Positions 1 to 64,000 of a stretch of 64,000 nt of DNA are shown one piece after another. The stretch is taken from contig DASZTO010000079.1 of assembly GCA_035548175.1 (NCBI GenBank), positions 21,733 through 85,732 of the forward strand. The letters run 5' to 3'. The notes beneath the pieces were generated by a model. It was not told the origin of the DNA, made no database searches, and saw only the letters and a list, made by a program, of their open reading frames with translations. How positions within the stretch are numbered: the first letter of the stretch is position 1; every line of letters begins with the position of its first letter. The position numbers and the translations under genes were made by a program. This DNA comes from Phycisphaerae bacterium. GTDB taxonomy: Bacteria > Planctomycetota > Phycisphaerae > WQYP01.

Positions 1-1292
1 ATATCCATCGCCGGCCCGTCCGGCGACCACAGCCACACCGTCAGCGTCCCCTCCGCCGTCGTCGCTTTGTTGATCTCCAGCGCCGCCGGATATTTTTGCC
101 AGAAATCCTTCACCCCCACCGCGATCCCGCCCGAGACATCCCCCAGCACCGCCATCCCCAGCGACCGCTTGCCGTCGGTCACATGCAACCACGAGCTTTT
201 GTCCTGCGTGCGCTTGTCGATGGAATAGCCGTTGGGGTTGGGCTGCGACAGTTTAAAATCGTTGTACACCGCCACCGATTCCATCGCCGTCTGGTTGGGC
301 AGTTGGGCCATGTTCGGCATCCGCTTCCCGGCGAGATGCGCCTCATACTGCTCCGGCGACAGCGCGTTGCGATACCCCGGCAACAACCGCACAGGCTGCC
401 GCCACACGCCCGTCCCCTCCCCCACAAACCGCACGTGCCGGTTGTGCAATTCCTCCTTCAGCGGCACCCCGAACCGCAGCCCCATCCCCTGGATGAAATC
501 CTTCTCCTGGTCCCCATCAAAAATGAACGAATGCACCATCCGCACCGCATCCGTCCCGGCATAAAAATAAAACCGCATCACGAACGGCAAAAACGTCCGG
601 CCCGGTTTGTCCACATTCGTCGCGACCGCCGCCGCATCTTCCGACTCCATCCCCTCCACCTTGATCACCGCCCGCACCGGCCCGCTCTGTTCCACCGTCA
701 CCTTCGTCACACGGCTGGTGAACCCCACCGTCCGCAGGATTCCCTGCCCCTGCTGCGACCGGTCCTCCAACTGCACCACCAGCTCGCCGTTCTCCGCCAC
801 CGTCCGATCCCCGATCGCCAGCGACTGCATCACCGCCGATCCGCCCGGCACGAACCGGCAGTGCAATTCCCCACTATCGACCTCCACCCCGCTCCCATCC
901 TCTTTGACCGTAATCGGCTGCGCCACCGCCGGCCCGCTGCCCACGCTCACCGTGAACGGCCCCTTCAACGCCTCCGCGTTCCCCCCCGCCGCCGGCGCCA
1001 CCCCCACCGCGCACCCGCTCCACTTGATCGACCCATCCGGCCAGTACGCCAGCGGCCAGCTTTGCATCGCCACCGCCTGCCCGTCCGCCCCGCGCAGCAT
1101 TAAAGGATCGGCCTTGTGCACCGCCCCCTCCGGCCACGGCACGCCCCACTGCACGCCATCGGCCGCCGCCGGCACGCTGTCCAGCCAATGCACCGTCACC
1201 GGCGTCGCATGCTGCTGCTGCCCGAGGCAGGGCACTGCCCACGCCGTCAGCATCCCCGCCACCACCGCGCACCGCACCGCTTTCCATGCCAT
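1..1292 (-). CDS. Exo-rhamnogalacturonan lyase-like protein (PcRGLX/YetA, PL26-type), secreted; runs off the left edge of the window
   Basis: Not in the ORF track because it has no stop in the window. Manual translation: MAWKAVRCAVVAGMLTAWAVPCLGQ (signal-like) ...GVQWGVPWPEGAV...QSWPLAYWPDGSIKWSG...RFYFYAGTDAVRMVHSFIFDGD...VKDFWQKYP...VWLWSPDGPAMD, motifs typical of YetA/PcRGLX. GAGAGG RBS upstream of the ATG at 1292. Confidence 0.8.
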   Translation of the reverse strand, partial: MAWKAVRCAVVAGMLTAWAVPCLGQQQHATPVTVHWLDSVPAAADGVQWGVPWPEGAVHKADPLMLRGADGQAVAMQSWPLAYWPDGSIKWSGCAVGVAPAAGGNAEALKGPFTVSVGSGPAVAQPITVKEDGSGVEVDSGELHCRFVPGGSAVMQSLAIGDRTVAENGELVVQLEDRSQQGQGILRTVGFTSRVTKVTVEQSGPVRAVIKVEGMESEDAAAVATNVDKPGRTFLPFVMRFYFYAGTDAVRMVHSFIFDGDQEKDFIQGMGLRFGVPLKEELHNRHVRFVGEGTGVWRQPVRLLPGYRNALSPEQYEAHLAGKRMPNMAQLPNQTAMESVAVYNDFKLSQPNPNGYSIDKRTQDKSSWLHVTDGKRSLGMAVLGDVSGGIAVGVKDFWQKYPAALEINKATTAEGTLTVWLWSPDGPAMD

Positions 1293-1562
1293 AATGTCCA
1301 TCCTCTCGTTGCATCCTCCCCCCATTTTCAACGCGAACCGCCCGCGCCCGATTGCTCCCCCGGAACGGCCAAACTTTGCCTGTCTTCACACCCCCGCCAT
1401 GCTGGTCGCGGTTTTCCGCTCTATCCCCGCGTTATATCTCCATAGATCGTGAGAAAATTCTTGCCACCCTCCCCAACTTGGGGTAGGTTTTCCCACAGCT
1501 TCCCTTCGGCGCTGCTTGGATTCCATCCCCGTTGCGTGCTCCGCGCTGATTTCCGGTGACTC

Positions 1563-2231
1563 ATGACGCGCACTTTTTGCTCTCTCGCCATCGCTGGCGC
1601 GCTTCTGGTCGCCGCACCCCTTCTCGCCAGCCCCCTCGTGACCCTCTCCGCACAATCTGACAAAAGCTCCGTCAACGTCGGCGACACCTTCACCGTCACC
1701 GTCTCCGCTCAGGTCGCCAACGGCGCCCTCAACGACGGCCTCACCGCTTACAACATCGACCTCTATCCCACCACCAGCTCCCAACTCCAATTCCTCGGCG
1801 CAGCCAGCCAGAACTCCGGCATCTCCCTGAGCACCGGCAACTCCGATCCCGGCACCGGCGGCCTCCTCGGCGTCAGCGCCGTCTTCGATGCCCCCGGCAT
1901 CGCCATCGGTTCCACCGTGCCCCTCTTCACCGTCACCGTCAAAGCCCTCGCTCCCGGCGCGACCACCGTCGCCGCCGGTCTGAGCGTCTATCCCAATGGC
2001 GCCGGCATCCCGCTGGAGCTCAATGTCTCCGGCGACTATGTCGCCGCGCCCGGCTCCGGCAACTTCTCCGTCGATACCTCCAACGCCATCGCCCATGTCT
2101 CGGTGGCCGTCCCCGAACCTTCCGCCGCCCTGTTCGTGCTGCCGGCGGTCGGGCTGTTCCTTCTGCGTCGTCGCCGTGCCCTCCCTGCCGTACTCCCCCT
2201 GCGTGCCCACGGTCGGGCGATTACTCCGTAA
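1563..2231 (+). CDS. PEP-CTERM surface protein with a cohesin-like Ig domain
   Basis: N-terminal signal peptide. C-terminal VPEPSAALFVLPAVGLFLLRRRR is a PEP-CTERM motif, TM helix and Arg cluster. The core SVNVGDTFTVTVSA...LTAYNIDL...LQFLG...PLFTVTVKALAPGATTV follows the cohesin-type beta-sandwich pattern (this part less certain). Confidence 0.85.
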   Translation: MTRTFCSLAIAGALLVAAPLLASPLVTLSAQSDKSSVNVGDTFTVTVSAQVANGALNDGLTAYNIDLYPTTSSQLQFLGAASQNSGISLSTGNSDPGTGGLLGVSAVFDAPGIAIGSTVPLFTVTVKALAPGATTVAAGLSVYPNGAGIPLELNVSGDYVAAPGSGNFSVDTSNAIAHVSVAVPEPSAALFVLPAVGLFLLRRRRALPAVLPLRAHGRAITP

Positions 2232-2297
2232 GTCCATCCTTTCCGAATCGACCAGGCTTGTATTGCGGTCGCCGGAAGCCAGTGTTGTGGGAACTCT

Positions 2298-5200
2298 GTG
2301 CTCTCTGCGTTGCGATCTTTCGGACGCGCTCTGCGGCGGGCTCTCCATGAGGAGGGCCCGTCCGACCCCTCGGCCGCGCGCCTCTCACGCTACAAGGACC
2401 AGCGCCCTTCCGGCGTCGAATGGCTCGAAACCCGCCTCCTGCTTTCCACCATCACCTGGACCTCCAGTTCCTCGGGCAACTGGAACAACGGCGCCAACTG
2501 GAGCGGCGGCAAGGCGCCCGGCTCCGGCGATTCGGCCGTTATCGACGTGCCCGGCGTCACCGTCACCGTCTCCGACCAGGAGTCCGTCCATGACCTCTCC
2601 GTCAATGTGACCGACCCCAACAACGCTCCCACCCTCCAACTCACCGGCGGCTTCCTGGCCATCGGCGCCTCTTCCGCCATTAGCGGAAATCTGCAACTGC
2701 AGGGGGGCAATCTGTTTATCGGCAGCGGCACCTTGACCACCGCAGGAAACACCGATTGGGCCGGCGGCAACATCAACCTCGACGGCCACACCCTCCTCAA
2801 CACCGGAAACATGACCTGGGAAACCACCGGCGGCGTCTACGGCAACACCGGGCCCACCATCAATGGCTCCCCCAACCAGGGCGGCACCCTCGACAACCAA
2901 GGCTCCATCGCCGAATCCGTCAACGGTCCCACCCTCTTCGATTCTGTCCTTATCGAGAATGAAGCCACCTTCGACTTCACCGGCGATGCCGGCATGAACT
3001 ACGGTAGTGGCAGCCCAAACTTCACCAACGCCGCCACAGGCACCGTCGAAAAAACCGGCGGCTCCGGAACCTCCTCCTTCTCGGTCACCTTCAACAACCA
3101 GGGCGGCACCATCCATTCGGAATCCGGCACCCTCTCCCTGCCCTACGGCACCAATACCGGCGGCACCTATACCGCCGACCTCGCCGCCACGCTCCTCATC
3201 TCCGGCTTCCTCTCCGGCACTTACACCGGCGCGGGCCAGGGCACCGTGGGGCTGAGCAACAACATCCTGATCAACTCCCCCGGCGCCACCTTCGATTTCA
3301 CCGGCAACACCTTCCAGTGGACCGCCCACAACATCGATCTCGACAACCACACCCTCATAAACCTCGGCACCATCACCTTTAACACCTCCGCCGGCATCTA
3401 CGGCAACACCGGCATCGATCTCAATGGTTCCGGCAGCCAGGGCGGCACCCTCGACAACCAGGGGACCATCCTCCAGGCGGGCGGCTCCTACGCCCTCTTT
3501 GATTCCGTCTCCATCCTGAATGAGAACACCTATGACTTCACCGCCGACGGGGGCATCGCTTACGGCAACGCCAACCCCTTCGTGACCAACACCGGCCTGT
3601 TTGAAAAGACCGGTGGCGCCGGCACTTCCAGCACCGGCGTCACCTTCAACAACCAGGCAGGCACCGTCTACGCCAAAACCGGCACCCTTGTTCCCGGTCG
3701 CGGCACCAATACCGGCGGCACCTACAATGCCGACGCCAACGCCATCGTCGAACTGCAAGGTTTCCTCGGCGGCGCCTTCACCGGCGGCGGCGCGGGACAA
3801 CTGCTTCTCGGCGGCAACATCCTCATCTCCGGCAGCAACGCCACCTTCAACTTCCCCGCCAATTACTTTCTCTGGAACGCCGCCCATATCGACCTCGACA
3901 ACCATATCCTGACCAACACCGGCTTCCTCACCTTCAATACGTCCAACGGCTTCTACGGCAACACCGGCATCGACATCAATGGCAGCGGCAACCAGGGCGG
4001 TACCCTCGACAACCAGGGCACCATCATCCACGCCGGCGGGTCCCCGGCCATGTTCGACAACACCGAGATCCTCAATGAAGGCACCTATGACTTCACCGCC
4101 GACGGCGCGGTCGCCTATGGCAACGCCAACCCCCTCTTCGTCAACACCGGCCTCTTCGAGAAAACCGGGGGGACCGGCGCCTCGACTACCAGCGTCGGCT
4201 TCAACAACCAGGGCGGCACGGTTTACGCTCAAACCGGCACCCTCAACCCCGGCCGCGGCACCAATACCAGCGGCACTTACAACGCTGACGCCGGGGCCGT
4301 CGTCGAACTGCAAGGCTTTCTGGGCGGCACCTTTACAGGCAGCGGCGCCGGCCAACTGTTCCTTGGCGGCAACATCCTCATCTCCGGCAGCAATGCCACC
4401 TTCAACTTCCCGGCCAATTACTTTGTCTGGAACGCCGCACAGATTGACTTGGATAGCCATGTCCTGACCAATCTCGGCTTCCTCACCTTCGACGTCTCGA
4501 ACGGCATCTACGGCAACACCGGCATCGACATCAACGGCAGCGGCAGCCAGGGCGGCATCCTCGACAACCAGGGCACGATCCTCCAGGGGGCCGTCAACCC
4601 GGCGATGTACGACAGCACCGAGATTCTCAACGCGGGCACCTATGACTTTACCGCCGATGGCTCCGTCGCTTACGGCAACGCCAGCCCTACATTTGTGAAC
4701 ACCGGCCTGGTCGAGAAAACCGGGGGGGCCGGGGCTTCCGGCACCGGCGTGACCTTCAACAACGAGGGCGGCACCGTCTACGCCCACACCGGCGCACTGA
4801 ATCCCGGTCGCGGCACCAACACCGGCGGCGCCTACAACGCCGATGCGGGAGCCACCGTCGAACTCCAGGGATTCCTCAGTGGCACTTACACCGGTTCCGG
4901 CGGCGGCACGGCGACCCTCGGGGGAAACATCCTCATCAACAGCAACAATGCCACCTTCAATTTCCCCGCCCAATTCTTCCAGTGGACCGCCCATGAGATC
5001 GACCTCGACTCCCACACCCTGATCAACACCGGCTGGCTCACCTTCGCCACCACGGCGGGCATCCGCGGCAACACCGGCATCGATATCAACGGCAGCGGCA
5101 GTCAGAGCGGCGTCCTCGATAACCAGGGCACGATCTTCCAGGCCGGCGGCGCACCGGCCCTCTACGATTCCGTCGAACTGGAAAACGAGGGGCGGTACGA

Positions 5201-8200
5201 CTTTACGACCGCCGGCAACATCAACAACGGCAGCGGCAACCCCTTCGCCCTCAACGCCGCCACCGGCACGTGGGAATCCGATGCCAGCGGCATCTCCACC
5301 GTGAATCTGCCTTTCAACAACCAGGGCGGATCGGTCGATGCGGCCGCCGGCACCCTGGCGTTCACCGGCGGCACCAACACCGGCGGCACCTATTCGGCGG
5401 CGCTGGGGGCGGCGGTCCTTCTGGCGGGGGTCTTCGGCGGGTCTTACACGGGCTCGGGCAGCGGGGCCGTGTCGCTCAACTCCAATATCCTCATAAATGG
5501 ATCCAACGCCACGTTCAATTTCCCGGTGGGATTGTTCCAGTGGACGGGGGCGGGCATCGATCTCGACGGACACACCCTCACCAATACGGGCTCGATGACC
5601 TGGTCTGCTCCGGGGGCGCTCTTCGGGAACACCGGCATCGGAGCCAACGGCAGCGGCAACCAGGGGGGGACGCTGGACAATCGGGGCACGGTTCTGGCGA
5701 GCGGGACGGCGACGCTCTACGACAGCGTGTCCATAAGCAACGAAGGAACCTTCGACTTCACGGGCGATGCCGGGCTGGCCCTGGGCAATGGCAATCCGGG
5801 GGTGACGAACTCCGTCAGCGGCATTCTGGAGAAGACCGGCGGCACCGGCACCTCGGCCGTGGACCTGCCTTTCAGCAATGCGGGGTCGGTCATCGCGGCC
5901 TCTGGCACGTTGACGTTCACGCGCGGGGTCAGCCAGATTTCCGGCCACACGCTGACGGGAGGGGCGTGGGCCGCGACGCACGGGGCGACGCTGGTGATCC
6001 CCAGCGTGACGATCACGACCAACAGCGCGCAGGTGACGTTGAGCGGGGCGGGAGCGACGTTCGCGGCGATCAATTCGCTGGCGGACAACGAGGGATCATT
6101 CGCATTGACGGAAGGAGCCTCGCTGACGACCGCCGGGGCGTTGACCAACAACGGAACGCTGGTCCTGGGGCCGCACGGAACTCTGGCGGTGGCCGGATCG
6201 CTGGCGGAAGGCGGGGCGTCGGTGTTGAACATTCAGCTTGGGGGCACGCCGGCGTCGGGGGCGTTCGGGTTTCTCTCGACCACGGGGGTGGCGACATTGA
6301 ACGGAACGCTGTCGGTGACTTTGGCGGATGGGTTCGGGCCGACTGCGGGGCAGACCTACACAGTGACGAATTTTGCCAGCAAGACCGGGGCGTTCAGCAC
6401 GGTGACAGGAGGGGTCGTCAACGGGGTGACGCTGTACACGATTACCGTCAATGCGAATATCGTGATCAACGCGGTATCCAATAGCGCCGACCTGGCGGTT
6501 TCCAATGTGACCGCCCCGGCGTCCGCGGCGGGGGGGCACACCCTCACCATCACGTGGCAGGTGACCAATCTGGCGAGCACCGGGACGGTGGGGACGGACT
6601 GGGTGGATGACGTGTACCTGACGGCGGGGGGGGTGGTGAATGCGACCTCTATCCTGATAGGATCGGTCGCACACAGCGGGGCGGTGGGCGGCGGGGGGGG
6701 ATACAGCGGCAGTTTCAGCGGCACGGTGCCGACGAGCGTGCCGACGGGAACCTACACGGTGGTGGTGGTCATCGACGCGGGGAACGTGTTGCCGGACGTG
6801 AATCGGGCGAACAATATGGCGGCGGCGCCGGGGACAACGCATGTGACGCTGCCGGGGGGACCGGTGGTGGTCAGTCAGACGCCGACGGGGGCGGTTCCGG
6901 CGCCGCTGGATCATATTGATATCGTGTTCTCGGTGATCATCGATCCGACGAGTTTCAGCGCGTCGGATGTGCTGCTGGTGGGGGCGTCGGGGGCGGTGAC
7001 GGTGACGGCGATCGAGGAGATCAACGCGACGACGTACCGGATTCATTTCGCGGCGTTGTCGGTGGATGGGGCGTACACGCTGACGGTGGGGCCGGACGTG
7101 CGGGATTTGCAGGGCGATGAGATGGACCAGAACGCGGATGGCGTTCCGGGGCAGCCGTCGGATGCGTACGTGGGGACGTTCACGTTCCACTCGGTGGGGG
7201 CGCACGTGACGGGGAGTTTGCTGAACGGGACGACGGGGGGCAGCGGGCCGGTGAAGGGGCCGGTGTCGTCGGTGCAGGTGACGTTCAGCGAAGCGGTGCA
7301 GGTATCGACGTTCTCGGTGGCGGACGTGACGCTGACGGGGGTGTCCCACGCGTTCACGATCACGGGGGTAACGCCGGTGGATGCGGTGAACGGGGCGGCG
7401 ACGACATTCACGGTTACGTTTGCGTCCGCGTCGGCAAGCGGGCTGTACACGCTGACGGTCGGGCCGGACATTCTGGATTTGGTCGGTCTGGCGATGGATC
7501 AGGATGGCAACGCGACCAGCGGGGAACCGACGGATGCGTTCGTGCTGAACTTTACGATCGACAGCACCGGCCCGCAGGTGGTGTCGGTGACGCCGGGCGC
7601 GGGAAGTGCGGTGCATCAGCCGATCACGTCGGTGGTGGTGACGTTCAACGAGCCGATCGATCCGGCGACGTTCCTGGTGGGCTCGGTGTCGATCAACGGG
7701 CCGCCGGGGAGCATCTCCGCCGCAGCGATCACGGAAATTGACGCGACCGATTTCCGGATCAACCTGTCCACCCTTGCCGCTCTCGGCACGTATCATTTCG
7801 TACTGTCCCCCACGATCAGCGATCTCGTCGGTAATGAACTCGACCAGAATGCCAACGGCATCAACGGCGAGGCGGGGGATGCGTTCGCCTTCGACATCCT
7901 GCTTTCGCAGCCGAACCTGGTGGCGTCGGCGCCGTCCGCGCCGGTGTCGGCAAGCGCGGGCAGCCAGATCAGCGTCTCGTTCCTGGTGACCAACAACGGG
8001 AACCTGGCGGCGACGGCGCCTTTCACCGATGAACTGATTCTCTCGCAATCGGGCGTGCTGGGGGCGGGAGATAATCTGCTTCTGCAGGCGGTGACGGTGA
8101 ACGCGGACGTGGCGGCGGGGGGCTCGTACACGGAAGTGTTCACGACGAATTTGCCGCTGGGGATCGAGGGGGATTACACGCTGTTCATGGTGACGGATTC

Positions 8201-46607: not shown

Positions 46608-46633
46608 CCATCACCACCCCCCAGGAGCCCTCC

Positions 46634-52821: not shown

Positions 52822-52843
52822 CCCCCCCCCACCCTCCCCCCCC

Positions 52844-53245
52844 TCAGCTCCCCGCCCCCACCGGAAACCTGCCCCCACGCCCACCGCCCCCGCCTGCCGC
52901 TCCGCTCCGCCACCGCAGCACCCCCAGACACCCCGCCACGCCCAGCAGCACCATCCACCACGGAATCATCACCGTCCGCACCCCAGACCCGCTCAACCAG
53001 TGTACACCGGTGAAAAAAGTCGAAAACGAAAGCTGCCTCACCACCGGCAACACATGAAACGACGCCACCCCGTTCCGCGAGGTCCACCCCGCAAAAGGCC
53101 CGAAGCAGGAAACGCCCACATAGGCCCGCCCCAGCGACAGCTGCCACACCGCAAACTGCGAAAGCACCAGCATCGCCACCATCGCCAGCGGCAAGACCTG
53201 CACCGCCACCCACGTGATTCGCGCCATCCCGCGCCTTCCAGCCAC
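52844..53245 (-). CDS. Small hypothetical membrane protein
   Basis: AAGGAG RBS before the GTG. Hydrophobic N- and C-terminal segments (IPWWMVLLGVAGCLGVLRW). Confidence 0.55.
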   Translation of the reverse strand: MAGRRGMARITWVAVQVLPLAMVAMLVLSQFAVWQLSLGRAYVGVSCFGPFAGWTSRNGVASFHVLPVVRQLSFSTFFTGVHWLSGSGVRTVMIPWWMVLLGVAGCLGVLRWRSGAAGGGGGRGGRFPVGAGS

Positions 53246-53289
53246 GACATCACTCCTTCGCCCCCGCCCCGCCCGACGCGAACAGTGTC

Positions 53290-55992: not shown

Positions 55993-56080
55993 GGGGCACC
56001 GGCGGGTAAGAGATGTGGATCGCTCTCTTTTATACTCGCTGGCGGGTTCTCGCGGAAACGTCGCGGCGTCATGCGGTCGC

Positions 56081-57211
56081 TCAGCCGAGAGGCGCGAGGG
56101 GCAGGGTGAAGCGCCATTGCGGTCCCTCGGGCGCGGTCAGGCGCTCGATGCCACCGCGATGCGCCGCGGCGATCTCGCGCGCCACGGCCAGGGAAATGCC
56201 GTCGCGTCCGGAAGGGGAGCTGGCTTCGGCAAAGAGGGGATCGACGGCGTCGTGGCGGAGCTGGATGACGATGGCCTGGGAGTCGGAATGGGTCTGCGCG
56301 CCGATGGCGACGGTCGCGCCGGTTTTGGCCATGCGCCGCGCGGCGGTGAGCAGCGCCGCCATGGCATAGGCCGCCCGGGTCAAATCCGCGTGCACGGCAG
56401 GCAGCGTGTCGGGCAAATCGATCTGAATCGCAAGGCCTTTTTCGGAAATCTCGCGCTGGAGCGAGCGGACGGCGGCATCCACGATCGCGCCGGCGTGCAG
56501 GGGTTCGACCTGGAGGGGCGCCTTGCCGGAGCGCAGGCGTCCGACGTCGAGGAGGTCATCGATCAACTGATTGAGCCGCTCCGCGTCCTGGCGGGCGGTG
56601 GTGAGCAGCTCGCGATCGCGGGGCGCCAGGCCGTTGGAGGCGTCATCGACCAGCAGGTGGATGGCCATCTGGAGGGAAGTCAGGGGCGTTTTGAGCTCAT
56701 GGGACACGGTGGAAAGCAGGCCGGACTTGGCCTCATCGGCCTGTCGCCGGCCGGTGGCGTCGATGAGGATCAGGGCGATGCCGGTGAAGTCGCCTGCGGC
56801 GCCGGCGAGGGGGATGGCGCGGGGCACCAGGAAGAGTTCGCGTCCCTGGTCGAAGACCTGCACGGCGGCGGCGGGCTGCTCGGCGTGCACGGGCTGGCGG
56901 CGCGATTTGACCTCTTCGAGCAGCGGCATCAGCCAGCGGTGGGGGAGTTCCGCGGCGGGCGTTTTGGGCCAGAGACGCAGCAGCGAGACCGCCGGCTCGT
57001 TGGCGGTTTCAATGATCAGGTCGGGCGAGAACAGGGCGACGGGATGCGGGAGCGTGTCGAGGATGGTCTGAAGGGAAGGGGCGGCATCGAGGACGCGCTG
57101 GCGGGCGATGTGGTTCTTCACCAGGCGGCGAATGATGAGACGTTGAACGGCGAGAAGCGCGAGCGCGAGCACCAGAGCGAAGGAGAGAAGCAGGGTGAGC
57201 GTGACGAGCAT
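56081..57211 (-). CDS. Membrane histidine kinase-like protein (PAS + HisKA) with a degenerate ATPase domain
   Basis: One TM helix, a PAS-like segment and H-box STVSHELKTPLTS. The N and G1 boxes are not recognisable. Confidence 0.8.
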   Translation of the reverse strand: MLVTLTLLLSFALVLALALLAVQRLIIRRLVKNHIARQRVLDAAPSLQTILDTLPHPVALFSPDLIIETANEPAVSLLRLWPKTPAAELPHRWLMPLLEEVKSRRQPVHAEQPAAAVQVFDQGRELFLVPRAIPLAGAAGDFTGIALILIDATGRRQADEAKSGLLSTVSHELKTPLTSLQMAIHLLVDDASNGLAPRDRELLTTARQDAERLNQLIDDLLDVGRLRSGKAPLQVEPLHAGAIVDAAVRSLQREISEKGLAIQIDLPDTLPAVHADLTRAAYAMAALLTAARRMAKTGATVAIGAQTHSDSQAIVIQLRHDAVDPLFAEASSPSGRDGISLAVAREIAAAHRGGIERLTAPEGPQWRFTLPLAPLG

Positions 57212-57259
57212 CAAGAGATGTTACGCCGTGGATGCGGAAAGGGAAGGCGCTGCGGGAGC

Positions 57260-59287
57260 CTATGGCGGCGGGGATGCAGACTGGGCGGCGGTCCAGATCG
57301 CACGGAAGGCGGCTTCGACATCGCGAGCGTACTGGGCGGCGTTCATCAGCGGGGAGGCTTCCATGCGGGGCCTCAGGGTGGCGCGCAGCGCGGCCAGGCG
57401 ATCTGTGTCCCGGGCGAGCGCGATGGCGATGCGGGGGTAATCCTCCGGGGTCGTGGCGATCAGCTCTTTGAGGTCCAGGTGGGTGAGCAGGGAAGCGCCC
57501 ATGCGGCCGGGGCGGGCCTGGCCGGCGAGGGTGACGAGGGGGACGCCCATGTGGAGCAGCTGGCAGGAGGTGGTGTGGCCATTGAAGGGCCAGGAGTCGA
57601 GGGCGATGTCGATGTCGCGGAGGTCGGCGAGGAAATCGAGCAGCGCGGCGGCGGGTTTGAGCGACAGGCGCTCGGGCGGCAGGCCGGCGGCGGCACAGCG
57701 GTCGAGTGTGTAGGCGCGGACGGACGCATCGGCGAGGGCGGCGTGTTGGATGATGAAGCGCGCGCGTGGCAAGGCGGCGGCGATTTGGGCCCAGGCGTGG
57801 AGGACGGGGGGGCGGAGCTTGGCGAGCTGGTTGAAGGAGCCGAAGGTGATGCGGCCGGAGGAGAGGGCGGGGGGCGGGAAAACGGGAGAGACGTTGGGAG
57901 GGGGCTGATAGCAGGCGAAGATCGGCAGTCGCAGGAGTTTTTCGGTGGCGAAGGAATCGGGAGCGGTGGGCGGGTGCAGGATGGCGTCGGTGATTTGGTA
58001 ATCGATTTGGGTGAGGCCGGTGGTGTTGGGATAGCCGATCATGGCGACCTGGAGCGGCGCGGGGCGTGCGTGGAAAAGCGGGAGGTGGTTATGGGCGGTG
58101 TGACCGGCGAGATCGACGAGGATGTCGATGCGGTCCTGCTGGATCAGGTGGAAGGTTTGCTCGGTGGTGAGGGCGGAGATGTCGCGCCAGTGGTCGGCGT
58201 GGGTTTGCAGGCGGTGGGTGACGGCGTCGGGCCGCGCGGGAGGGGGGAAGTTGGCGTAGCAGAAGATTTCGAAGTGTGTGTGATCGTGGTGGGCAAGGAG
58301 GGGTTCGACGAAGAAGGCGACGGAGTGGGTGCGGAAATCGGAGGAGAGGTAGCCGATGCGCAGGCGGCGGGTGGGGGAGGGATCGCGCGGAGTTTGGGGC
58401 CGGGCGACGGCGGGGAGGGTGGCGGCCCATTGGCGGTGGATGTCGAAAAGTTGCTGCGGGGAGAGGCGGTCATCGTAGTTGGCGAGGTTGATGAGGTTGC
58501 TGAAAAAATCGGTGTGGGCGGGGTTAAGGGCGACGGCGTGGCGGCAGGCGTCGGTGGCGCGGTCGAGGTCGCCGCGGTCGAAGTGGAGGGAGCCGAGGGC
58601 GGCCCAGGTGTGCTGGTGCGTGGGGAGGCGGGCGAGGAAATTCTCGAGGAGCGCGATGGCTTCGTCGGAGCGCTGGGCTTGCTGAAGGCAGAGGGCGAGA
58701 TCGTTGGTGATCGCGGGATTGTCGGGTTGAAGGGCGGCGGCCTGGCGGGCGCAATCGATGGCTTCGGGGAGGCGCCTGAGGGCGCGGAGGGTGAGGGCGA
58801 GGTTGTAGAGGAGCTCGAAGTTGTGGGGATGAATGGGCTGGGCGGCGAGGAGGTGGTGGAGGCTTTCGTCGAGGTTTCCGGCGGAGCGCAGGAGGGCGGC
58901 GAGGTTGACGCGCGGGGTGAGGGAGGCGGGATCGAGGCGAAGCGCGTTTTCGTAATGGCGGGCGGCGTCGGAGGGGCGGCCGAGGTTTTGGGCGCAGAGG
59001 CCGAGCATGATGTGGAGGTCGGGATGGGCGGGGAAATGGGGGAGGGTTTTGGCGGCGATGTCGTAGGCGAGGGCGAAGACATCGGAGGCTGGGTGGCTGT
59101 TGATGATCGTTACGGCGCATTCCGTGAGGCGCAACAGGTCGTTGGGAGCGGCAGCCAGGGGGAGGGCGGCGCGGCAGGCGTCGAGCGCGGCGGGGACATT
59201 TGAGTGGCGAATGCCGTCGGTGGCGCTGTCCAGCAGTTGGGCAAGAGTGGGCACGAGGCGGCGCTCCGGGCGATGGCATGGGAGCAC
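57260..59287 (-). CDS. TPR-containing O-GlcNAc transferase (SPINDLY/GT41 family)
   Basis: TPRs, then RLRIGYLSSDFRTHSV, DILVDLAGHT, PAPLQV, GYPNTTG, GSFNQLAK and DIALDSWPFNGHTT...MGVPLVTLAG. Start uncertain. Confidence 0.9.
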   Translation of the reverse strand: MLPCHRPERRLVPTLAQLLDSATDGIRHSNVPAALDACRAALPLAAAPNDLLRLTECAVTIINSHPASDVFALAYDIAAKTLPHFPAHPDLHIMLGLCAQNLGRPSDAARHYENALRLDPASLTPRVNLAALLRSAGNLDESLHHLLAAQPIHPHNFELLYNLALTLRALRRLPEAIDCARQAAALQPDNPAITNDLALCLQQAQRSDEAIALLENFLARLPTHQHTWAALGSLHFDRGDLDRATDACRHAVALNPAHTDFFSNLINLANYDDRLSPQQLFDIHRQWAATLPAVARPQTPRDPSPTRRLRIGYLSSDFRTHSVAFFVEPLLAHHDHTHFEIFCYANFPPPARPDAVTHRLQTHADHWRDISALTTEQTFHLIQQDRIDILVDLAGHTAHNHLPLFHARPAPLQVAMIGYPNTTGLTQIDYQITDAILHPPTAPDSFATEKLLRLPIFACYQPPPNVSPVFPPPALSSGRITFGSFNQLAKLRPPVLHAWAQIAAALPRARFIIQHAALADASVRAYTLDRCAAAGLPPERLSLKPAAALLDFLADLRDIDIALDSWPFNGHTTSCQLLHMGVPLVTLAGQARPGRMGASLLTHLDLKELIATTPEDYPRIAIALARDTDRLAALRATLRPRMEASPLMNAAQYARDVEAAFRAIWTAAQSASPPP

Positions 59288-59333
59288 TGTTGTAACGGTT
59301 GGAGCGGCCAGCGGCGAGCGGCGGGGCGGGGTT

Positions 59334-60701
59334 TCAAATCCGGTACTTTTTGCGGCGTCGCCAGAGTGTGGCGGTGTCGATGCCCAGGGTGGCGGCGGCG
59401 TCTTCGAGGGATTTGGTCTGGGCGAGCACGCGGCGGATGTAGAGTTCTTCGAGCTTGTCGAGGGTGATCAGTGGGGCGTCGGCGGAGAGGGGGTCCATGA
59501 CAATGGGGGCGCCCAGCGAGCCGGGCAGCAGTTCTGGGGTGACGGTGTCGGTGGCGGCGAGGATGGCGCAGCGTTCGATGACGTTGCGGAGTTCGCGAAT
59601 GTTGCCGGGCCATTGGTGCGCGCGCAGGACGTTGGCGGCTTCGGGGGAGAAGCCCAGGACTTTTTTGGGTTTGTTGCGGGTGAAGAAGGCGAGCATGCGC
59701 TCGGCCATCGGCACGATGTCGTCCTTGCGGTCGCGCAGCGGGGGCAGCTCGATCTGGATGACGTTGAGGCGGTAAAGGAGGTCTTCACGGAAGCGTCCGT
59801 CGGCGACGGCTCTTTCGAGGTTCACGTTGGTGGCGGTGATGACGCGGATGTCGGCCTTGCGCGTGACCTGCTCGCCGACGCGCTCGTATTCGCGGTCCTG
59901 GATGAAGCGCAGGAGCTTGGGCTGGATGGACACCGGCAGGTCGCCGATTTCGTCGAGGAAGAGGGTGCCGCCGTCGCAGGCGGCGATGCGGCCGGGGTTG
60001 TCGCGGAGGGCGGAGGTGAAGGAGCCCTTGATGTGGCCGAAGAGTTCGGATTCGAGGAGTTCGGGCGAGAGCGAGGGACAGGCGACGGTGGCGAGGGGGT
60101 GGTCCTTGCGGGCGGACCAGTTGTGGATGGCCCGCACGAGGACGCCCTTGCCGGTGCCGGATTCGCCGCGGATGAGGACGGTGGCGTCGGTGGTGGCGAC
60201 CTGCTGGGCGAGGTGGATGGCGCGCTGCATGGCGGGGGAGGTGGTGGAGGCGAAATCGGTTTCGGGGGGGGCGTTGGCGGCGGAATCCTGGAGGGTGGCG
60301 ACTTTCTGTTCGAGCCGGCGCAGCTCGGCGATGCGGCGGGTGACGAGTTTGACCTGGGCGGGGGTGAAGGGCTTGGGGAGATAGTCGGCGGCGCCGGCGC
60401 GCATGGCCTGGATGGCGGTGTCGATGGAGGCATAGGCGGTGATGACGACGATTTTCATCCAGGGGGACTGGGCGAGAAGCTGGGGGACCAGGTCGAGGCC
60501 GCGCTGGGCGCCGAGGCGCAGATCGACGAAGGCGAGATCGAAGGAGCGGCGGGCGGCTTCGGCGAGGGCGTCGGCGGGGTTGGAGACGGCGGTGACGTGG
60601 TGGTGCTCGTCCTCGAGGCAGAAGGCGAGGGTCTTGCGGATGTTGATCTCATCGTCGACGACGAGGATCGAGAGGGTGAGTGGCGGCGAGGCCTCGCTCA
60701 T
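59334..60701 (-). CDS. Sigma54-dependent (NtrC/AlgB-like) response regulator
   Basis: REC domain (ILVVDDE, FVDLRL, YLPKPF), Walker [48 protein letters not shown], Fis HTH. Confidence 0.93.
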
Positions 60702-60841
60702 ATTTCGCACAAACCTATGAGAGAAGGATTAGGGAGGGGAGATATAGCACAAGTGGACGGCCTAGGCAAGCATTTTGGCAATTTGGCGAAGATGGCTAAA
60801 TGGCGAAGCGTCATGGGCGGTCGAGAAGCCTCGCTATATTC

Positions 60842-63130
60842 TCATCCGCCCGGCGGCACGGTGGGTCGCGCGGCGACCGGTATCAGCGCCTCAGTATCGA
60901 TGGGCTGTTGGCCCTGGGCGCGACGGAAATCGTTGAGCGGCTGGAATTTGTCTTTCAGCGCCATCCACGGGACCAGCTCGACATGGCCATCGTAAAAGGC
61001 CACCAGGATGCCTGTGGGGGTCGTCGGGCGGGGGCGCTCGTACAGGAGAACCATGTTGTTGTCGGAGGTGGAAGGCATGCCTGTGCCGAGGTAAACGAAG
61101 TCGCAATGGCCGGCGAGGGCGGCGCTGAGGGCGGCGGGGGCCATGGCGGTGATCTGGTCGGGCGTGAGCGGAGGGGTGCTGCTGCCGGTGAGCAGGAGGG
61201 CTTTTGGAGGCAGATCGCCGGAGGCAAGGAGGGGAGCGAGGCTGTCGGGGAATTGATCCATGTGCTGATTGGCGTAGAGGATGCAGGCGGTGGCGATGGA
61301 ACGGGCGTTGGCGGCATCGGCGGAGCGGCGGGCGGCTTCCGCGGATTGGGAGAGCGACGGTCCCACGAAGGCCGAGGCCAGACCGGCGATCAGCGTACTG
61401 GCGGCGAGTTGCCTGCTGGCCATGAGCTGGGCGCCGGGGAAGGCGCAGCGGAGGACCCAGTGAGCGCCCTGCTGGTCGGTCCATGCGGCGGAGATGCCGG
61501 GGGAGAGGAAGGGTGTGGCGGCGTCGGCGGAGGGGAGCAGGCCGGGGGGCACTTTGAGGTGGATCATGGCGCCGGCGGTGGGCAAGAGGTCATGTGCGGC
61601 GGCGGCGATATCGGGGTAATCGCGGCGGGCGTCGAGGTAGCCCAGGGAGAACAGCTCGTCGGGGAAGGGCTTCCGGAGGGCCGCGAAGATGGGGTTGCCG
61701 GCGAGTGTACCGGTGGGGGTGGCCTGGGACTGAAGCTGGAGCTGCCGCAGGACGGCGGGGAGTCGGCGGACTTTGGTGAGCAGGAGGTTGTCTTGCCAGA
61801 GGGCGTAGCCGATTTCCAGATCGCCCATGCGGACCGTTTTCACCTGCGCGCCGGGCAGCATGACCTTGGCAAATCGGAAGGGGCCGGGGTTGGGGAAGCG
61901 GCGTTCGAGGGTGGCGAGGGCGGGGGCAAAGTGCTGGGGGTCGCGGATTTTCAGGATGACGACCAGCGGCGGAGGTGCGCCGTCCGGGAGCGGGGAGCGA
62001 TAGGTGATCAGGGCGTTGCCGATGGAAGCGAGGAGGTCTTTTTCCAGGTCGACGCCTGCGCGTTGGCGGAACGCCTGGAGCAGGGAGGCGTATTGGGCGG
62101 GGAGGCTCGGATCGATTTTGGGCAAGGCGGCCTGAAGGTCGTCGAGGAGGCCGGGGAGGTCGAGCGCGCGGAGGTCGGCGTCGAGGGCGTCGTTGGGGAT
62201 GAGGCGGATGGTCTGGGCGTCGAAGGGGGGTGGGGCGGCGAGGCGCAGGAGGCCGGGAAGCGGGCGGGGGGCGGAGAGTCCGAGGTTGGTGAACTGGAGC
62301 CAGTTTTTGCCATCGAAGCCGGCCTGGAAGCCGAGCTGGGAGATATCGGCGAGGCCGGTGGCGGCATAGAGTGCGTTGAAGCTGTGCTGGGCGCCGGCGA
62401 GGTTGTGAGCGGCGAGGTATTGATTGAGCGCCGCGAGGAGGCCATGGATATCGATGTAAGCGGCGAGGGCGGGGGTGGGCGGTGCGGCGGAAGCGGCGGG
62501 GGCGGGCAGATGCAGGGCCTGGGCGAAGTGGGGATCGCGCGCCAGGGATTGCGGCGGCGTGTGGAGGAGGCCGGCGGCGGGGAATCCGAAGGCGATGGCG
62601 ACGGCGTGGGCTTCGGCGGCGACGGTGGGTTTGAGGGGCGAATCGGGCAGGCTTTGGGCGAAGCGATCGAGGAGTCGCGCGAGGGCCGGAGCCTCGGGGC
62701 CGGCGTCGCACAGGATGCCGATGCGCACCGGCGGTCCGGCCTCGTTGGGGGGTGCGGCTGAGAGGAACAGCGCGGTGGGATGGCGCCACAGCGGCCCGAG
62801 GACGGAAGCGGCAAATTGCAGTTGCGCGGCAGTGTCGGGGTTGGGCGAGGCGCGCTGGAGGGCATCGGGCAGGCCGGCGAAAAACGCGGGCAGGGAAGAG
62901 GCGTCGAGGAAGCCTTTGAGGTTGGAGTGGGCGTATGCGTCGGCGAGGGGCTGGGCGCCGGCCCATCCGAGATAGGCGAGCGTTCCGGCGGGGACGCGGT
63001 CGGCGAGGGGAGCGGACGGGTCGGGCAGGCTGGCCATTGCGGGCGTGGTGGAAAAAGCGGTCGCGAGCACCTGCAGGACAACAGCCGCCACAATCCCCCG
63101 CAGCGATCGCCATCGCTCGCGCATGCGCAT
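60842..63130 (-). CDS. Planctomycete DUF3352/DUF1559-type protein with a C-terminal H-X9-DG-like motif
   Basis: Signal-like N-terminus. C-terminal AEAARRSADAANARSIATACILYANQH...FP and ILVAFYDGHVE. Confidence 0.7.
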   Translation of the reverse strand: MRMRERWRSLRGIVAAVVLQVLATAFSTTPAMASLPDPSAPLADRVPAGTLAYLGWAGAQPLADAYAHSNLKGFLDASSLPAFFAGLPDALQRASPNPDTAAQLQFAASVLGPLWRHPTALFLSAAPPNEAGPPVRIGILCDAGPEAPALARLLDRFAQSLPDSPLKPTVAAEAHAVAIAFGFPAAGLLHTPPQSLARDPHFAQALHLPAPAASAAPPTPALAAYIDIHGLLAALNQYLAAHNLAGAQHSFNALYAATGLADISQLGFQAGFDGKNWLQFTNLGLSAPRPLPGLLRLAAPPPFDAQTIRLIPNDALDADLRALDLPGLLDDLQAALPKIDPSLPAQYASLLQAFRQRAGVDLEKDLLASIGNALITYRSPLPDGAPPPLVVILKIRDPQHFAPALATLERRFPNPGPFRFAKVMLPGAQVKTVRMGDLEIGYALWQDNLLLTKVRRLPAVLRQLQLQSQATPTGTLAGNPIFAALRKPFPDELFSLGYLDARRDYPDIAAAAHDLLPTAGAMIHLKVPPGLLPSADAATPFLSPGISAAWTDQQGAHWVLRCAFPGAQLMASRQLAASTLIAGLASAFVGPSLSQSAEAARRSADAANARSIATACILYANQHMDQFPDSLAPLLASGDLPPKALLLTGSSTPPLTPDQITAMAPAALSAALAGHCDFVYLGTGMPSTSDNNMVLLYERPRPTTPTGILVAFYDGHVELVPWMALKDKFQPLNDFRRAQGQQPIDTEALIPVAARPTVPPGG

Positions 63131-63188
63131 CTCCGACTCTTTTGCGTGTAAGATAGCCGCCGGGGATCACCAAGGGAAAGGAAGAAGC

Positions 63189-63986
63189 GTGCAGTTTCCT
63201 TACTATTTTCACGTGTTGGGGATGCGGGTGCATCCGCATCCGGTGATGGAGGGGACGGCGTATGTGGTGGGCGCGGCGTTGCGCGTGGCGATCGGGCAGT
63301 GGCGCGGGAAGGAGGCGCAAGGCGAGCGCAGCACCGAGGCGCGTTTGTGGCAGATTGCCGGGGCGGTGATCGGGGCGCTGGTGGGGGCGAAGCTGCTGGC
63401 GTGGGCGGAGAATTGGCGGCAGGTGGTGCACGCGTCGGCGACGCTGGGGCTGGAGGCGTGGATCGGCGGCAAGACGATCGTGGGCGGGCTGGCGGGCGGA
63501 TGGGCGGGCGTCGAGATTGCCAAGAGGTTGACGGGGGTGAAGGAGCGGACGGGGGATTTGTGGGTGTATCCGCTGTGCGTGTCGATGGCGATCGGGCGGG
63601 TGGGGTGTTTTTTGACCGGGTTAAGCGATGACACGTATGGGACAGCGACGGGGTTGCCGTGGGGAGTGGATTTCGGGGATGGGATTCGGCGGCACCCGAC
63701 GCAGTTGTACGAAAGCGTGTTCATGCTTTTGCTGGCGGGCGGGCTGGCGCTGTGGCAGTGGCGGAGCGGGATCGGCTGGCGGACGGGCCGGGTGTTCCGG
63801 TGGTTCATGCTGTGGTATTGCGCGTGGCGGTTTTGCGTGGAGTTCATCAAGCCGACGGACAAGTGGATCGGGGGGTTGAGCGTGATACAGGTGTTCAGTG
63901 TGGGGGTGTGCGTGTTTTGTACGTGGCGGTTGTGGCGCGAGCGGGAAGGACGAGAGGCCGCGGCGGTGGTGGGGGTGGAGGCATGA
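63189..63986 (+). CDS. Prolipoprotein diacylglyceryl transferase (Lgt)-family protein
   Basis: GGKTIVGGLAGG, AIGRVGCFLTG, YGTATGLPWGVDFGDGIRRHPTQLYE, RFCVEFIK. GTG start after AAAGGAAG. Confidence 0.85.
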   Translation: MQFPYYFHVLGMRVHPHPVMEGTAYVVGAALRVAIGQWRGKEAQGERSTEARLWQIAGAVIGALVGAKLLAWAENWRQVVHASATLGLEAWIGGKTIVGGLAGGWAGVEIAKRLTGVKERTGDLWVYPLCVSMAIGRVGCFLTGLSDDTYGTATGLPWGVDFGDGIRRHPTQLYESVFMLLLAGGLALWQWRSGIGWRTGRVFRWFMLWYCAWRFCVEFIKPTDKWIGGLSVIQVFSVGVCVFCTWRLWREREGREAAAVVGVEA

Positions 63987-64000
63987 GCGAGCGAACACCG
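63983..64000 (+). CDS. Start of a translationally coupled downstream gene (MSERTP...), truncated by the window edge
   Basis: ATGA overlap with the Lgt-like stop; only 6 codons visible. Confidence 0.4.

What the first reader, a model, noticed from the sequence alone, without database searches (positions are those of the whole stretch)
1..64000. Window-wide alternating skew domains independent of gene orientation
Seen: the + strand is C-rich at 1-5.3 kb, G-rich at about 5.4-14 kb, strongly C-rich at about 16-53 kb, mixed at about 53-56 kb and strongly G-rich at 57-64 kb. Both + and - genes follow the local skew: minus genes at 1-1292 and 40080-41057 are C-rich on +, and the plus-strand Lgt-like gene is G-rich like its minus-strand neighbours. 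Foreign-looking genes (46085-46501, 48884-50638) lack the skew, which suggests it accumulates with residence time. Known: ordinary replication skew is mild and switches only at ori and ter. Inference: multiple local initiation or loading sites, or polarised ssDNA exposure, may exist in this lineage.
Basis: partly seen in the sequence, partly recalled or inferred. Interest (0 to 1): 0.75.

Follow-up and report, generated by a model that had tools for sequence, protein, structure and literature searches.

The report
Sawtooth strand-bias domains across a planctomycete genome
This soil bacterium's whole chromosome is cut into roughly 65-kb stretches in which one DNA strand or the other has lost most of its cytosines whatever the gene direction, in a pattern that resembles the many-origin replication footprint of animal genomes.

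Summary
In the window the skew switches at 5395 (up), about 14176 (gradual, down) and 53274 (up). The first two switches lie inside one real 12,298-aa gene.

Genome-wide:
- 67% of 2-kb windows have |GC skew| >= 0.2.
- Four-fold sites are 78% C or 80% G.
- Opposite-strand neighbour genes share the + strand sign in 769 of 883 pairs.

The trait is present in a few related genomes, including an 800-kb long contig. It is missing from most of the family.

Switches have a polarity. Minus-to-plus switches are sharp and plus-to-minus switches are broad (median 3.0 vs 6.8 kb, p = 1.4e-9). A second genome shows the same.

The signs are not fixed to genes, since orthologue skew correlates at only r = 0.13. 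Sharp switches carry no motif, no AT dip and no DnaA boxes. They sit mostly at gene boundaries, but some lie inside housekeeping genes.

Best reading, about 0.4: a map of replication-fork direction with many initiation sites, made visible by very strong cytosine loss on the exposed strand. Rivals are self-reinforcing R-loop exposure and rearrangement history.

This scan noted similar mosaics before in other phyla. My literature searches found no description.

The parts
1..5395 (.). Domain with a C-rich + strand (skew about -0.25 to -0.33)
   Evidence: It holds the minus PcRGLX-like gene (coding strand G-rich) and the first 1000 codons of the giant + gene (four-fold sites C 0.77).
5100..5900 (.). 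Upward switch (minus to plus) inside the giant gene; cumulative G-C minimum at 5395
   Evidence: GC3 skew goes from -0.68 to +0.37. The same switch sits at the aligned place in the G002 orthologue (68.6% aa identity, silent sites saturated).
5396..14176 (.). Domain with a G-rich + strand, wholly inside the giant + gene
   Evidence: four-fold sites G 0.77, C 0.18. CARDB and Big_5 Pfam hits in the + frame.
12500..17000 (.). Broad downward transition (plus to minus); cumulative maximum at 14176
   Evidence: GC3 skew runs +0.16, -0.31, -0.38, -0.46 in successive 1.5-kb blocks.
14177..53274 (.). Long domain with a C-rich + strand, deepening to -0.57 at 37-39 kb
   Evidence: The + genes here have a C-rich coding strand. 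The minus ORF 40080-41081 has a G-rich coding strand.
53100..53450 (.). Sharp upward switch at 53274 between convergent genes
   Evidence: The 300-nt profile goes from 'd/e' to 'A/B' within about 300 nt. It is bridged by separately assembled contigs of three other samples of the same study.
53275..64000 (.). Domain with a G-rich + strand (+0.07 rising to +0.43)
   Evidence: The minus genes have a C-rich coding strand. The plus Lgt gene has a G-rich coding strand.
2298..39194 (+). Giant gene (12,298 aa) for a surface protein with CARDB, Big_5, He_PIG, Big_9, dockerin and RHS-repeat domains
47349..51048 (+). Segment absent from the syntenic G003 contig, low GC and weak skew; holds an AAA_21/AAA_15 ATPase gene (48884-50638)

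Best explanation
The domains record a mutation regime that depends on position and acts in place. In each domain one strand loses cytosines several times faster than the other, and silent sites have run to equilibrium.

I read the domain map as a map of replication-fork direction. Sharp minus-to-plus switches, about one per 65 kb, would be fixed sites where two forks leave in opposite directions. Broad plus-to-minus transitions would be zones where forks meet. The G-rich strand would be the one exposed as the single-stranded lagging-strand template.

Shown here:
- The regime is real, genome-wide, specific to this lineage and independent of gene orientation.
- It is not tied to gene identity.
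- The switches have a polarity.
- The skew is carried by silent and non-coding sites.

Inferred, not shown:
- That replication is the process exposing the strand.
- That the up-switches are initiation sites.
- That cytosine damage in single-stranded DNA is the chemistry.
For: - Orientation independence. Coding-strand GC3 skew is bimodal, with modes near -0.75 and +0.6. Opposite-strand neighbours share the + strand sign in 769 of 883 pairs (r = 0.83). Genes with a G-rich coding strand are real: 9 of the 12 examined beside up-switches have Pfam hits.
- Mutational nature. Four-fold sites are C .78 / G .11 in one gene class and G .80 / C .11 in the other, with A and T near .05 in both. At two-fold sites C/(C+T) is .77 vs .48 and G/(G+A) is .42 vs .85. 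Spacers between convergent genes have skew +0.28 on the domain's G-rich strand (93 spacers, 22.8 kb).
- Polarity of the switches, which does not depend on contig orientation. Jumps of 0.5 or more: 33 up, 7 down. Jumps of 0.6 or more: 14 up, 1 down. Median width is 3.0 kb for 68 up-transitions and 6.8 kb for 68 down-transitions, p = 1.4e-9. In G006 the widths are 2 vs 12 kb. With baseline-corrected GC3 skew, 19 up and 6 down.
- Mean profile at 41 up-switches: -0.3 | +0.3, zero at +-25 kb, opposite sign at 40-50 kb.
- Acting in place. The syntenic ribosomal-protein operon runs smoothly from +0.56 to -0.32 in G000 but is all negative in G006. The switch inside the giant gene is kept in G002 although four-fold sites are saturated (identity .62/.68 vs .58/.63 expected).
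- tRNA genes lie with their sense strand on the G-rich strand 29 to 9 (p = 0.0017). That is what is expected if the G-rich strand is the leading strand.
- Not an assembly error. Other samples' contigs bridge the switch at 53274, and the trait is present on an 800-kb contig of another genus.
Against: - The 41 sharp up-switches have no shared 8-12-mer.
- They show no dip in GC content and 0 DnaA-box matches, against 1.7 expected by chance.
- No gene family recurs beside them. Of 39 flanking proteins, 31 have ordinary Pfam hits.
- 7 of 41 lie well inside ordinary genes.
- Both dnaA genes sit inside domains, not at switches.
- Protein genes favour the C-rich strand, which would be the lagging strand: 56% of coding length, rising with gene length from .47 to .65 and 4 of 4 above 2000 aa. 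This is the reverse of the usual leading-strand preference.
- Switch positions differ within the genus. BioF-like and membrane-protein orthologues of G001 and G007 have no switch.
- Big jumps are about 25 times commoner at gene boundaries than at mid-gene (25 of 884 vs 1 of 863). Two switches coincide with breaks of synteny to G003. Both facts also suit a rearrangement reading.
- DnaA, RNase HI, UDG and Rho are present as in unskewed kin, so no gene change explains the trait.
- No bacterium is known to replicate this way (my knowledge).
Confidence: 0.4

Rival explanations
1. Strand exposure that reinforces itself and has nothing to do with replication. An example is R-loops, in which G-rich RNA pairs with its template and leaves the G-rich DNA strand single-stranded. 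That strand loses more C, so the skew grows, and regions lock into one of two states. Domain walls could then sit anywhere. They would be sharp where transcripts enter a G-rich zone and fuzzy where they leave it.
For: - The skew distribution has two saturated states of equal size (four-fold C .78 vs G .80).
- Most of the genome is plateau. The mean slope of skew within genes is only -0.0035 per kb.
- The walls have no sequence motif and can lie inside genes.
- The domain maps drift between relatives.
- tRNA genes, which are very highly transcribed, have their sense strand on the G-rich strand 29 to 9.
Against: - 54% of genes (56% of coding length) have a C-rich coding strand at full amplitude. 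Antisense transcription would have to drive more than half of the genome.
- The highly expressed ribosomal-protein operon is G-rich then C-rich in G000 and C-rich throughout in G006. Expression therefore does not set the sign.
- Gradients of 15-40 kb are much longer than R-loops (my knowledge).
- RNase HI and Rho are present.
Confidence: 0.2
2. Ordinary two-arm replication with an unusually strong strand bias, plus many recent inversions, translocations or recombination tracts. Each block would still carry the skew of its former orientation.
For: - Rearrangement is frequent. One 46.6-kb G003 contig is made of blocks from 7 different G000 contigs at 81-95% DNA identity.
- Two ends of such blocks coincide with G000 up-switches, at C36:45991 and C71 near 38376.
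- Large jumps are strongly enriched at gene boundaries.
Against: - Inversions give equally sharp ends in both directions. Here up-switches are sharp and down-switches are broad, in two genomes.
- Both signs are at the same equilibrium amplitude, and neither dominates on contigs of 100-800 kb.
- Smooth gradients occur inside a syntenic operon.
- Switches inside genes show no recombination signature. The two halves are similarly diverged from all relatives.
- The switch in the giant gene persists across saturated silent sites.
- The blocks rearranged in G003 all keep the polarity of their new neighbours.
- At the rearrangement rate seen, shuffling that ignored polarity would average the skew away (inference).
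Confidence: 0.12
3. An artefact, either of assembly or binning or of the crude gene calls, or selection on codon usage.
For: The genome is a 99-contig metagenome bin, 93% complete with 2% contamination. My gene calls rest only on the GC3 frame signature.
Against: - The skew is visible in raw base counts without any gene call.
- Separately assembled contigs from three further samples match across a switch.
- The trait recurs in other bins and on a long 800-kb contig.
- Pfam confirms genes of both classes.
- Non-coding spacers share the skew.
- Codon selection cannot flip with the DNA strand.
Confidence: 0.03

Closest known systems
Replication-associated GC skew of bacterial chromosomes, with a G-rich leading strand (recalled: Lobry 1996; reviews PMC3269012 and PMC3269016 seen only in a search listing)
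   Same: A strand asymmetry in G vs C that ignores gene orientation, is carried by silent sites and changes sign at discrete places.
   Different: Four-fold G:C ratios reach about 7:1. There are about 15 sign changes per Mb in each direction instead of two per chromosome. There is no T>A partner skew at four-fold sites. Genes favour the C-rich strand. The dnaA genes are not at a switch.
N-domains of the human genome: skew profiles with upward jumps at replication initiation zones and a decline between them (PMC2764438, PMC3320577, PMC4729899; search listing and start of abstracts only)
   Same: Sharp upward jumps, a gradual decline and a change of sign between jumps. Jump sites are not defined by a sequence motif.
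   Different: This is a bacterium. The domains are about 65 kb rather than around a megabase, the amplitude is an order of magnitude higher, and the profile is more plateau-like than linear. No replication data exist for it.
Codon-usage split between leading and lagging strands in Borrelia, Treponema and Chlamydia (recalled)
   Same: Codon usage and even amino-acid content of a gene depend on which strand class it lies on (first and second codon positions and the N,D,H vs K,E,Q share differ).
   Different: Those genomes have two arms. Here the classes alternate every few tens of kb and can switch inside a gene.
Strand skew of vertebrate mitochondrial DNA from long single-stranded exposure of one strand (recalled)
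   Same: Comparable amplitude at silent sites, and a gradient-like behaviour.
   Different: In mitochondria there is one fixed polarity per molecule and a clear T/A partner skew.
Local skew reversals read as inversions
   Same: Blocks with the wrong sign whose ends lie at gene boundaries. Some coincide with breaks of synteny.
   Different: See the rival above: the sharpness is asymmetric, both signs have equal amplitude, and there are switches inside genes and smooth gradients.
Origin-independent replication in E. coli lacking RNase HI (PMC4631800) and irregular skew in cyanobacteria that replicate without DnaA (PMC7198777); start of abstracts only
   Same: Precedents for bacterial replication that starts away from oriC, at several places.
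   Different: Those cases have weak or flat skew. Here DnaA (two copies) and RNase HI are present.

Membership tests
Classical two-arm replication skew | The sign changes only at the origin and the terminus | tested here: not met
   68 up and 68 down transitions in 4.58 Mb of G000. 8 up and 9 down on one 800-kb contig of G006.
Classical two-arm replication skew | The skew is independent of gene orientation | tested here: met
   769 of 883 opposite-strand neighbour pairs share the + strand sign.
Classical two-arm replication skew | An upward switch at oriC beside dnaA, with DnaA boxes | tested here: not met
   Both dnaA genes lie inside domains. There are 0 DnaA-box matches within 1 kb of the 41 up-switches, against 1.7 expected.
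Classical two-arm replication skew | Genes, above all highly expressed ones, prefer the G-rich leading strand | tested here: inconclusive
   tRNA genes do so, 29 to 9. Protein genes prefer the C-rich strand: 56% of coding length, more for long genes.
N-domain type skew (many origins) | Upward jumps are sharp and downward changes are gradual | tested here: met
   repeated in G006.
N-domain type skew (many origins) | Upward jumps coincide with mapped initiation sites | not testable with these tools
   Only assembled contigs of the runs are held. They give no depth profile and no nascent-strand data.
Transcription-associated skew | The sign follows the transcribed strand and resets gene by gene | tested here: not met
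   for orientation. The last-minus-first octile difference within 1121 genes is -0.014 +- 0.009.
Inversion or recombination mosaic | Switches lie at breaks of synteny or at ends of recombination tracts | tested here: inconclusive
   Two block ends coincide with up-switches. Three switches inside genes lie in DNA colinear with G003, and their two halves show no difference in ancestry.
Inversion or recombination mosaic | Both ends of a block are equally sharp, and the wrong sign decays with time | tested here: not met
   The widths are asymmetric. The two classes have equal four-fold composition. One switch is kept across saturated silent sites.

The most novel reading that the evidence does not exclude
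A free-living bacterium, with a few related genera, replicates its chromosome from some 70 or more dispersed initiation sites that are not defined by sequence. Replicons would be about 65 kb, as in eukaryotes. The fork-direction map has been written into the DNA by very strong damage to the exposed strand.
Probability: 0.3. Interest if true: 0.95.

Novelty: new variant of a known kind. Interest (0 to 1): 0.8.

Why it matters
- If the domains are fork-direction domains, this would be the first bacterial lineage with eukaryote-like replication from many origins. The DNA alone would then give a base-pair-level map of candidate initiation sites to test.
- If they are not, a strand-specific mutation process exists that is unknown, rewrites nearly all silent sites and shifts protein composition. 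It appears to recur in several phyla, according to earlier notes of this scan.
- There are practical consequences too:
  - Codon-usage, gene-transfer and inversion detectors that assume one genome-wide codon signature, or two-arm skew, will misread such genomes.
  - Checks of metagenome assemblies based on skew will flag them as misassembled.
  - Antisense shadow ORFs of thousands of codons appear, for example 6096-15731 on the minus strand.

Tried and rejected
- Motif search at 41 up-switches. With 8-, 10- and 12-mers within +-300 nt, nothing stood out (best 5 of 41 sequences, 8.8-fold).
- AT-rich unwinding element. GC stays at 0.63-0.67 in every 100-nt bin within +-1.5 kb.
- DnaA boxes: 0 found.
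- Mobile elements or initiator genes beside the switches: none among 39 flanking proteins.
- Gene loss or gain. In 41 family genomes DnaA matched in 40, RNase HI in 27, UDG in 38 and Rho in 41. All four are present in G000, G003, G006 and G007, so none tracks the trait. Only these four families were tried.
- Recombinant-allele reading for switches inside genes: no step in protein identity between the two halves.
- Convergent genes at up-switches (13 of 28). By my arithmetic this fits the general 56-58% preference for a C-rich coding strand (expected about 0.34 convergent, 0.18 divergent; chi-square about 3.1 with 2 df), so it needs no special explanation.
- Laid runs. Only contigs are held, so depth says nothing about replication. 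At 90% likeness the listed letter differences mix in other organisms at conserved domains, so I did not use them as a mutation spectrum.
- The C<->G share of G000-G003 differences (1362 of 5161) looks high. It may only reflect that about 90% of silent sites are G or C, so I draw no chemistry from it.
- Look-ups of earlier findings by place: nothing for this genome or its look-alikes.
- Literature searches found no description of such a mosaic in bacteria. Chen et al. 2020 (PMC7111523, passages read) mention only 'aberrant' cumulative skew in some complete genomes and suspect misassembly.
Full report
**1. What the window shows**

- It is negative at 1-5 kb (-0.33 to -0.23).
- It is positive at 5-13 kb (+0.10 to +0.18).
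- It falls steadily from -0.13 to -0.57 between 14 and 39 kb and stays at -0.33 to -0.47 up to 53 kb. The one exception is a low-GC patch at 48-51 kb.
- It is positive from 53 kb to the end, rising to +0.43.

Extremes of cumulative G-C place the switches at 5395, 14176 and 53274.

- The minus PcRGLX-like gene (3-1331) has + strand GC3 skew -0.54, and the minus ORF 40080-41081 has -0.52. Both follow the local C-rich + strand.
- The plus Lgt gene (63045-63986) has +0.45, like its minus neighbours.
- The two foreign-looking genes have low GC3 and weak skew (-0.17, -0.11).

The region 2298-39194 is one + strand ORF of 12,298 aa.
- GC3 is 0.78-0.91 along its whole length.
- Pfam finds CARDB, Big_5, He_PIG, Big_9, dockerin and RHS repeats in that frame.
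- Its GC3 skew is -0.68 for the first 3 kb, up to +0.39 from about 5.3 to 14 kb, and then falls to -0.89.

Two switches therefore lie inside one intact gene. Inversion cannot produce that.

**2. The pattern covers the whole genome**

The window is G000:C79:21733-85732, in a 4.79-Mb, 99-contig genome.
- Whole contigs have skews from -0.385 to +0.425.
- The 14 largest contigs, the ones profiled, alternate between signs.
- 67% of 2343 2-kb windows have |skew| >= 0.2. The SD is 0.286, against about 0.028 from sampling alone.

I called genes with a crude method based on the GC3 frame signature. It gave 2459 stop-to-stop ORFs covering 67% of the genome, with only approximate 5' ends.
- Coding-strand GC3 skew is bimodal, with modes near -0.75 and +0.6.
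- Opposite-strand neighbours share the + strand sign in 769 of 883 pairs (r = 0.83). Same-strand neighbours give r = 0.89 over 1477 pairs.
- Miscalled strands do not create the G-rich class. 9 of 12 such genes beside up-switches have Pfam hits, as do PcRGLX, Lgt and the CARDB part of the giant gene.

**3. It is specific to a lineage and is not an assembly artefact**

FtsH relatives place the organism in the class Phycisphaerae (Planctomycetota). Tepidisphaeraceae bins and Fontivita are at about 57-60% identity.

I sampled stretches of up to 20 kb from 37 other genomes of the same family.
- Clearly skewed: G003, G001 (3 of 4 stretches), G006 and G031.
- Moderately skewed: G007, G040 and G002.
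- The other 30 genomes have mean |skew| of 0.03-0.14. Among these, G032 (0.14), G044 (0.12) and G014 (0.10) are borderline.
- Three class-level genomes, and the named relatives other than L001, are flat.
- Skewed genomes have the highest GC in the family (0.58-0.65 vs 0.54-0.60).

Longer views confirm the contrast.
- An 800-kb stretch of one G006 contig alternates in domains of 20-130 kb.
- A 380-kb contig of unskewed G017 has no window at |skew| >= 0.2. Its coding GC3 skew has a single mode at -0.07.

Contigs assembled separately from three more samples of the same study match the window without any difference across 52.8-54.1 kb. These are records 13, 20 and 29.

**4. What kind of asymmetry it is**

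Composition of silent sites:

| Gene class | Four-fold sites | C/(C+T) at two-fold sites | G/(G+A) at two-fold sites |
|---|---|---|---|
| C-rich coding strand | A .05, C .78, G .11, T .06 | .77 | .42 |
| G-rich coding strand | A .04, C .11, G .80, T .05 | .48 | .85 |

- The two classes are near-exact complements of each other, with no A/T partner skew.
- If the sites are at equilibrium and the reverse rates are equal, C-to-T is about 3.6 to 8 times faster on the G-rich strand than on its partner (my arithmetic).
- First and second codon positions, and the share of N,D,H vs K,E,Q, shift as well. Protein composition is therefore dragged along.
- Spacers between convergent genes share the skew (+0.28, 93 spacers). 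The cause is mutation, not codon selection.
- Between G000 and G003 the differences, read on the G-rich strand, are C/T 1057, A/G 1315, C/G 1362, G/T 821, A/C 336 and A/T 270 (5161 in 47,705 columns). They are not polarised, so I draw no chemistry from them.

**5. The switches have a polarity**

The sign of the slope of skew does not depend on how a contig is oriented, so up and down can be compared across contigs.

| Measure | Up | Down |
|---|---|---|
| Jumps >= 0.5 (5-kb flanks) | 33 | 7 |
| Jumps >= 0.6 | 14 | 1 |
| Jumps >= 0.3 | 79 | 58 |
| Median width from -0.2 to +0.2 (or the reverse), G000, 68 each | 3.0 kb | 6.8 kb |
| Share of transitions <= 2.5 kb wide, G000 | 46% | 10% |
| Median width, G006 (8 up, 9 down) | 2 kb | 12 kb |
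| Baseline-corrected GC3 jumps between adjacent 600-nt blocks | 19 | 6 |

- The width difference in G000 has p = 1.4e-9.
- Many up-switches are complete within about 300 nt.
- The mean profile at 41 up-switches steps from -0.3 to +0.3, reaches zero at +-25 kb and takes the opposite sign at 40-50 kb. Part of that decline comes from averaging domains of different lengths.
- Inside domains the skew is mostly flat. The slope within genes is -0.0035 per kb.
- Individual gradients of 15-40 kb do exist, in the giant gene and in the ribosomal-protein operon.

**6. The regime acts in place; it is neither a property of genes nor a relic**

- For 266 orthologue pairs between G000 and G006, coding-strand GC3 skew correlates at r = 0.13 (142 same sign, 124 opposite).
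- The syntenic ribosomal-protein operon runs smoothly from +0.56 to -0.32 in G000. It is -0.34 to -0.71 throughout in G006.
- The switch inside the giant gene is at the same aligned place in G002 (68.6% aa identity). Four-fold sites of conserved residues there are as good as randomised (identity .62 and .68 vs .58 and .63 expected). Something still acting must maintain that boundary.
- Other switches inside genes are shared with close G003 but not with G001 or G007. The maps therefore drift within the genus.
- The two halves of these genes are about equally diverged from every relative. This speaks against recent import of one half.

**7. Facts that point the other way**

- Large jumps are about 25 times commoner at gene boundaries than at mid-gene (25 of 884 vs 1 of 863, p = 7e-7).
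- Rearrangement is frequent. One 46.6-kb G003 contig is built of blocks from 7 G000 contigs at 81-95% identity. Two block ends coincide with G000 up-switches.
- All of those blocks nevertheless carry the same polarity as their G003 neighbours. At that rate, shuffling blind to polarity would average the skew away (inference). Both signs are also at the same equilibrium, and neither dominates over hundreds of kb.
- The up-switches look nothing like bacterial origins. There is no shared motif, no GC dip, no DnaA box and no recurrent neighbouring gene. 7 of 41 lie well inside genes such as a BioF-like aminotransferase, a type III glutamine synthetase and CysK; the last two names are my reading of the translations.
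- Both dnaA copies lie inside domains.
- Protein genes prefer the C-rich strand (56% of coding length), the more so the longer they are. tRNA genes prefer the G-rich strand, 29 to 9, with 10 ambiguous and a 31-tRNA array set aside.
- A possible reason for the preference among long genes is that C-to-T on the coding strand turns CAA, CAG and CGA into stop codons. This is speculation.

**8. Mechanism**

Three things are needed to explain the data.
- A process that treats the two strands differently.
- A process that does so by position and not by gene.
- A process with point-like sources at the up-switches and diffuse sinks between them.

Replication forks leaving fixed sites and meeting in zones do exactly this, with the usual rule that the exposed lagging-strand template loses C. 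That is my best reading, at about 0.4.

Two other source-like processes fit the geometry.
- R-loop exposure that feeds back on skew (about 0.2).
- Break-induced or recombination-primed synthesis from fixed sites.

Rearrangement history on a two-arm chromosome gets about 0.12, and artefact about 0.03. The remainder is an unknown process.

**9. Comparison and novelty**

The closest formal match is the N-domain skew of human DNA (listing and abstracts only). The closest bacterial relative is ordinary replication skew, several of whose defining features fail here.

Six literature searches found no description of such a mosaic in bacteria.

Earlier notes of this scan report similar mosaics in an Acidobacteriaceae, a Methylacidiphilales and another Phycisphaerae genome, and in archaea. 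I did not check those genomes.

**Limits of this work**
- The genome is a metagenome bin.
- The gene calls are crude.
- The comparison with G003 rests on four stretches.
- Only four repair or replication gene families were compared.
- No replication data could be had.

Noticed in passing
window 2298-39194 (+): A single 12,298-aa ORF with CARDB, Big_5, He_PIG, Big_9, cadherin-like, dockerin and RHS-repeat domains, and about 200-aa repeats at its N-terminus. It is among the largest bacterial genes. Orthologues exist in G002 (about 69% aa identity) and G006 (40%). They were not found in G003, G001 or G007 with the first 2000 aa as query.
   Followed up: partly
window minus strand: 6096-15731, 16983-21080, 21141-27395, 32259-38714: Antisense shadow ORFs of 1365-3211 codons opposite the giant gene. 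Codons almost never end in A, so the codon-aligned antisense frame stays open. This is a trap for gene callers.
   Followed up: partly
G000:C50:684-5270: An array of 31 tRNA genes in about 4.6 kb, all on one strand and covering nearly all amino acids.
   Followed up: no
G000:C34:24679-25161 and C49:50300-50779; all family genomes: Two full-length DnaA paralogues in most genomes of the family, skewed or not. 40 of 41 genomes have a match, and 37 of 41 have at least two.
   Followed up: partly
L081+L141+L142 (G003:C25) vs G000: At about 90% DNA identity, one 46.6-kb contig of the sister genome is a chain of blocks from 7 G000 contigs (C36, C62, C49, C7, C79, C71, C27). Two blocks are inverted, and every block keeps the strand polarity of its neighbours. 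Either rearrangement is unusually frequent and preserves polarity, or one of the bins is partly misjoined.
   Followed up: partly
window 47349-51048: A segment absent from the syntenic place in G003. It has GC 0.54-0.58 and almost no skew, and it holds an AAA_21/AAA_15 ATPase gene of the AbiEii/OLD-like kind (48884-50638). It is probably a recent insertion.
   Followed up: partly
whole genome G000: The share of genes with a C-rich coding strand rises with length.47 at 100-200 aa.63-.65 at 700-2000 aa, and 4 of 4 above 2000 aa. tRNA genes show the opposite preference.
   Followed up: partly
family-wide samples (L081-L100, L199-L218): Genomes with the strong skew are also the GC-richest of the family (0.58-0.65 vs 0.54-0.60).
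   Followed up: no
L101-L140 (G006:C2 about 80-190 kb): A stretch of about 110 kb with almost no skew, inside an otherwise strongly skewed contig. A dnaA gene lies at its right edge, near 198 kb.
   Followed up: no
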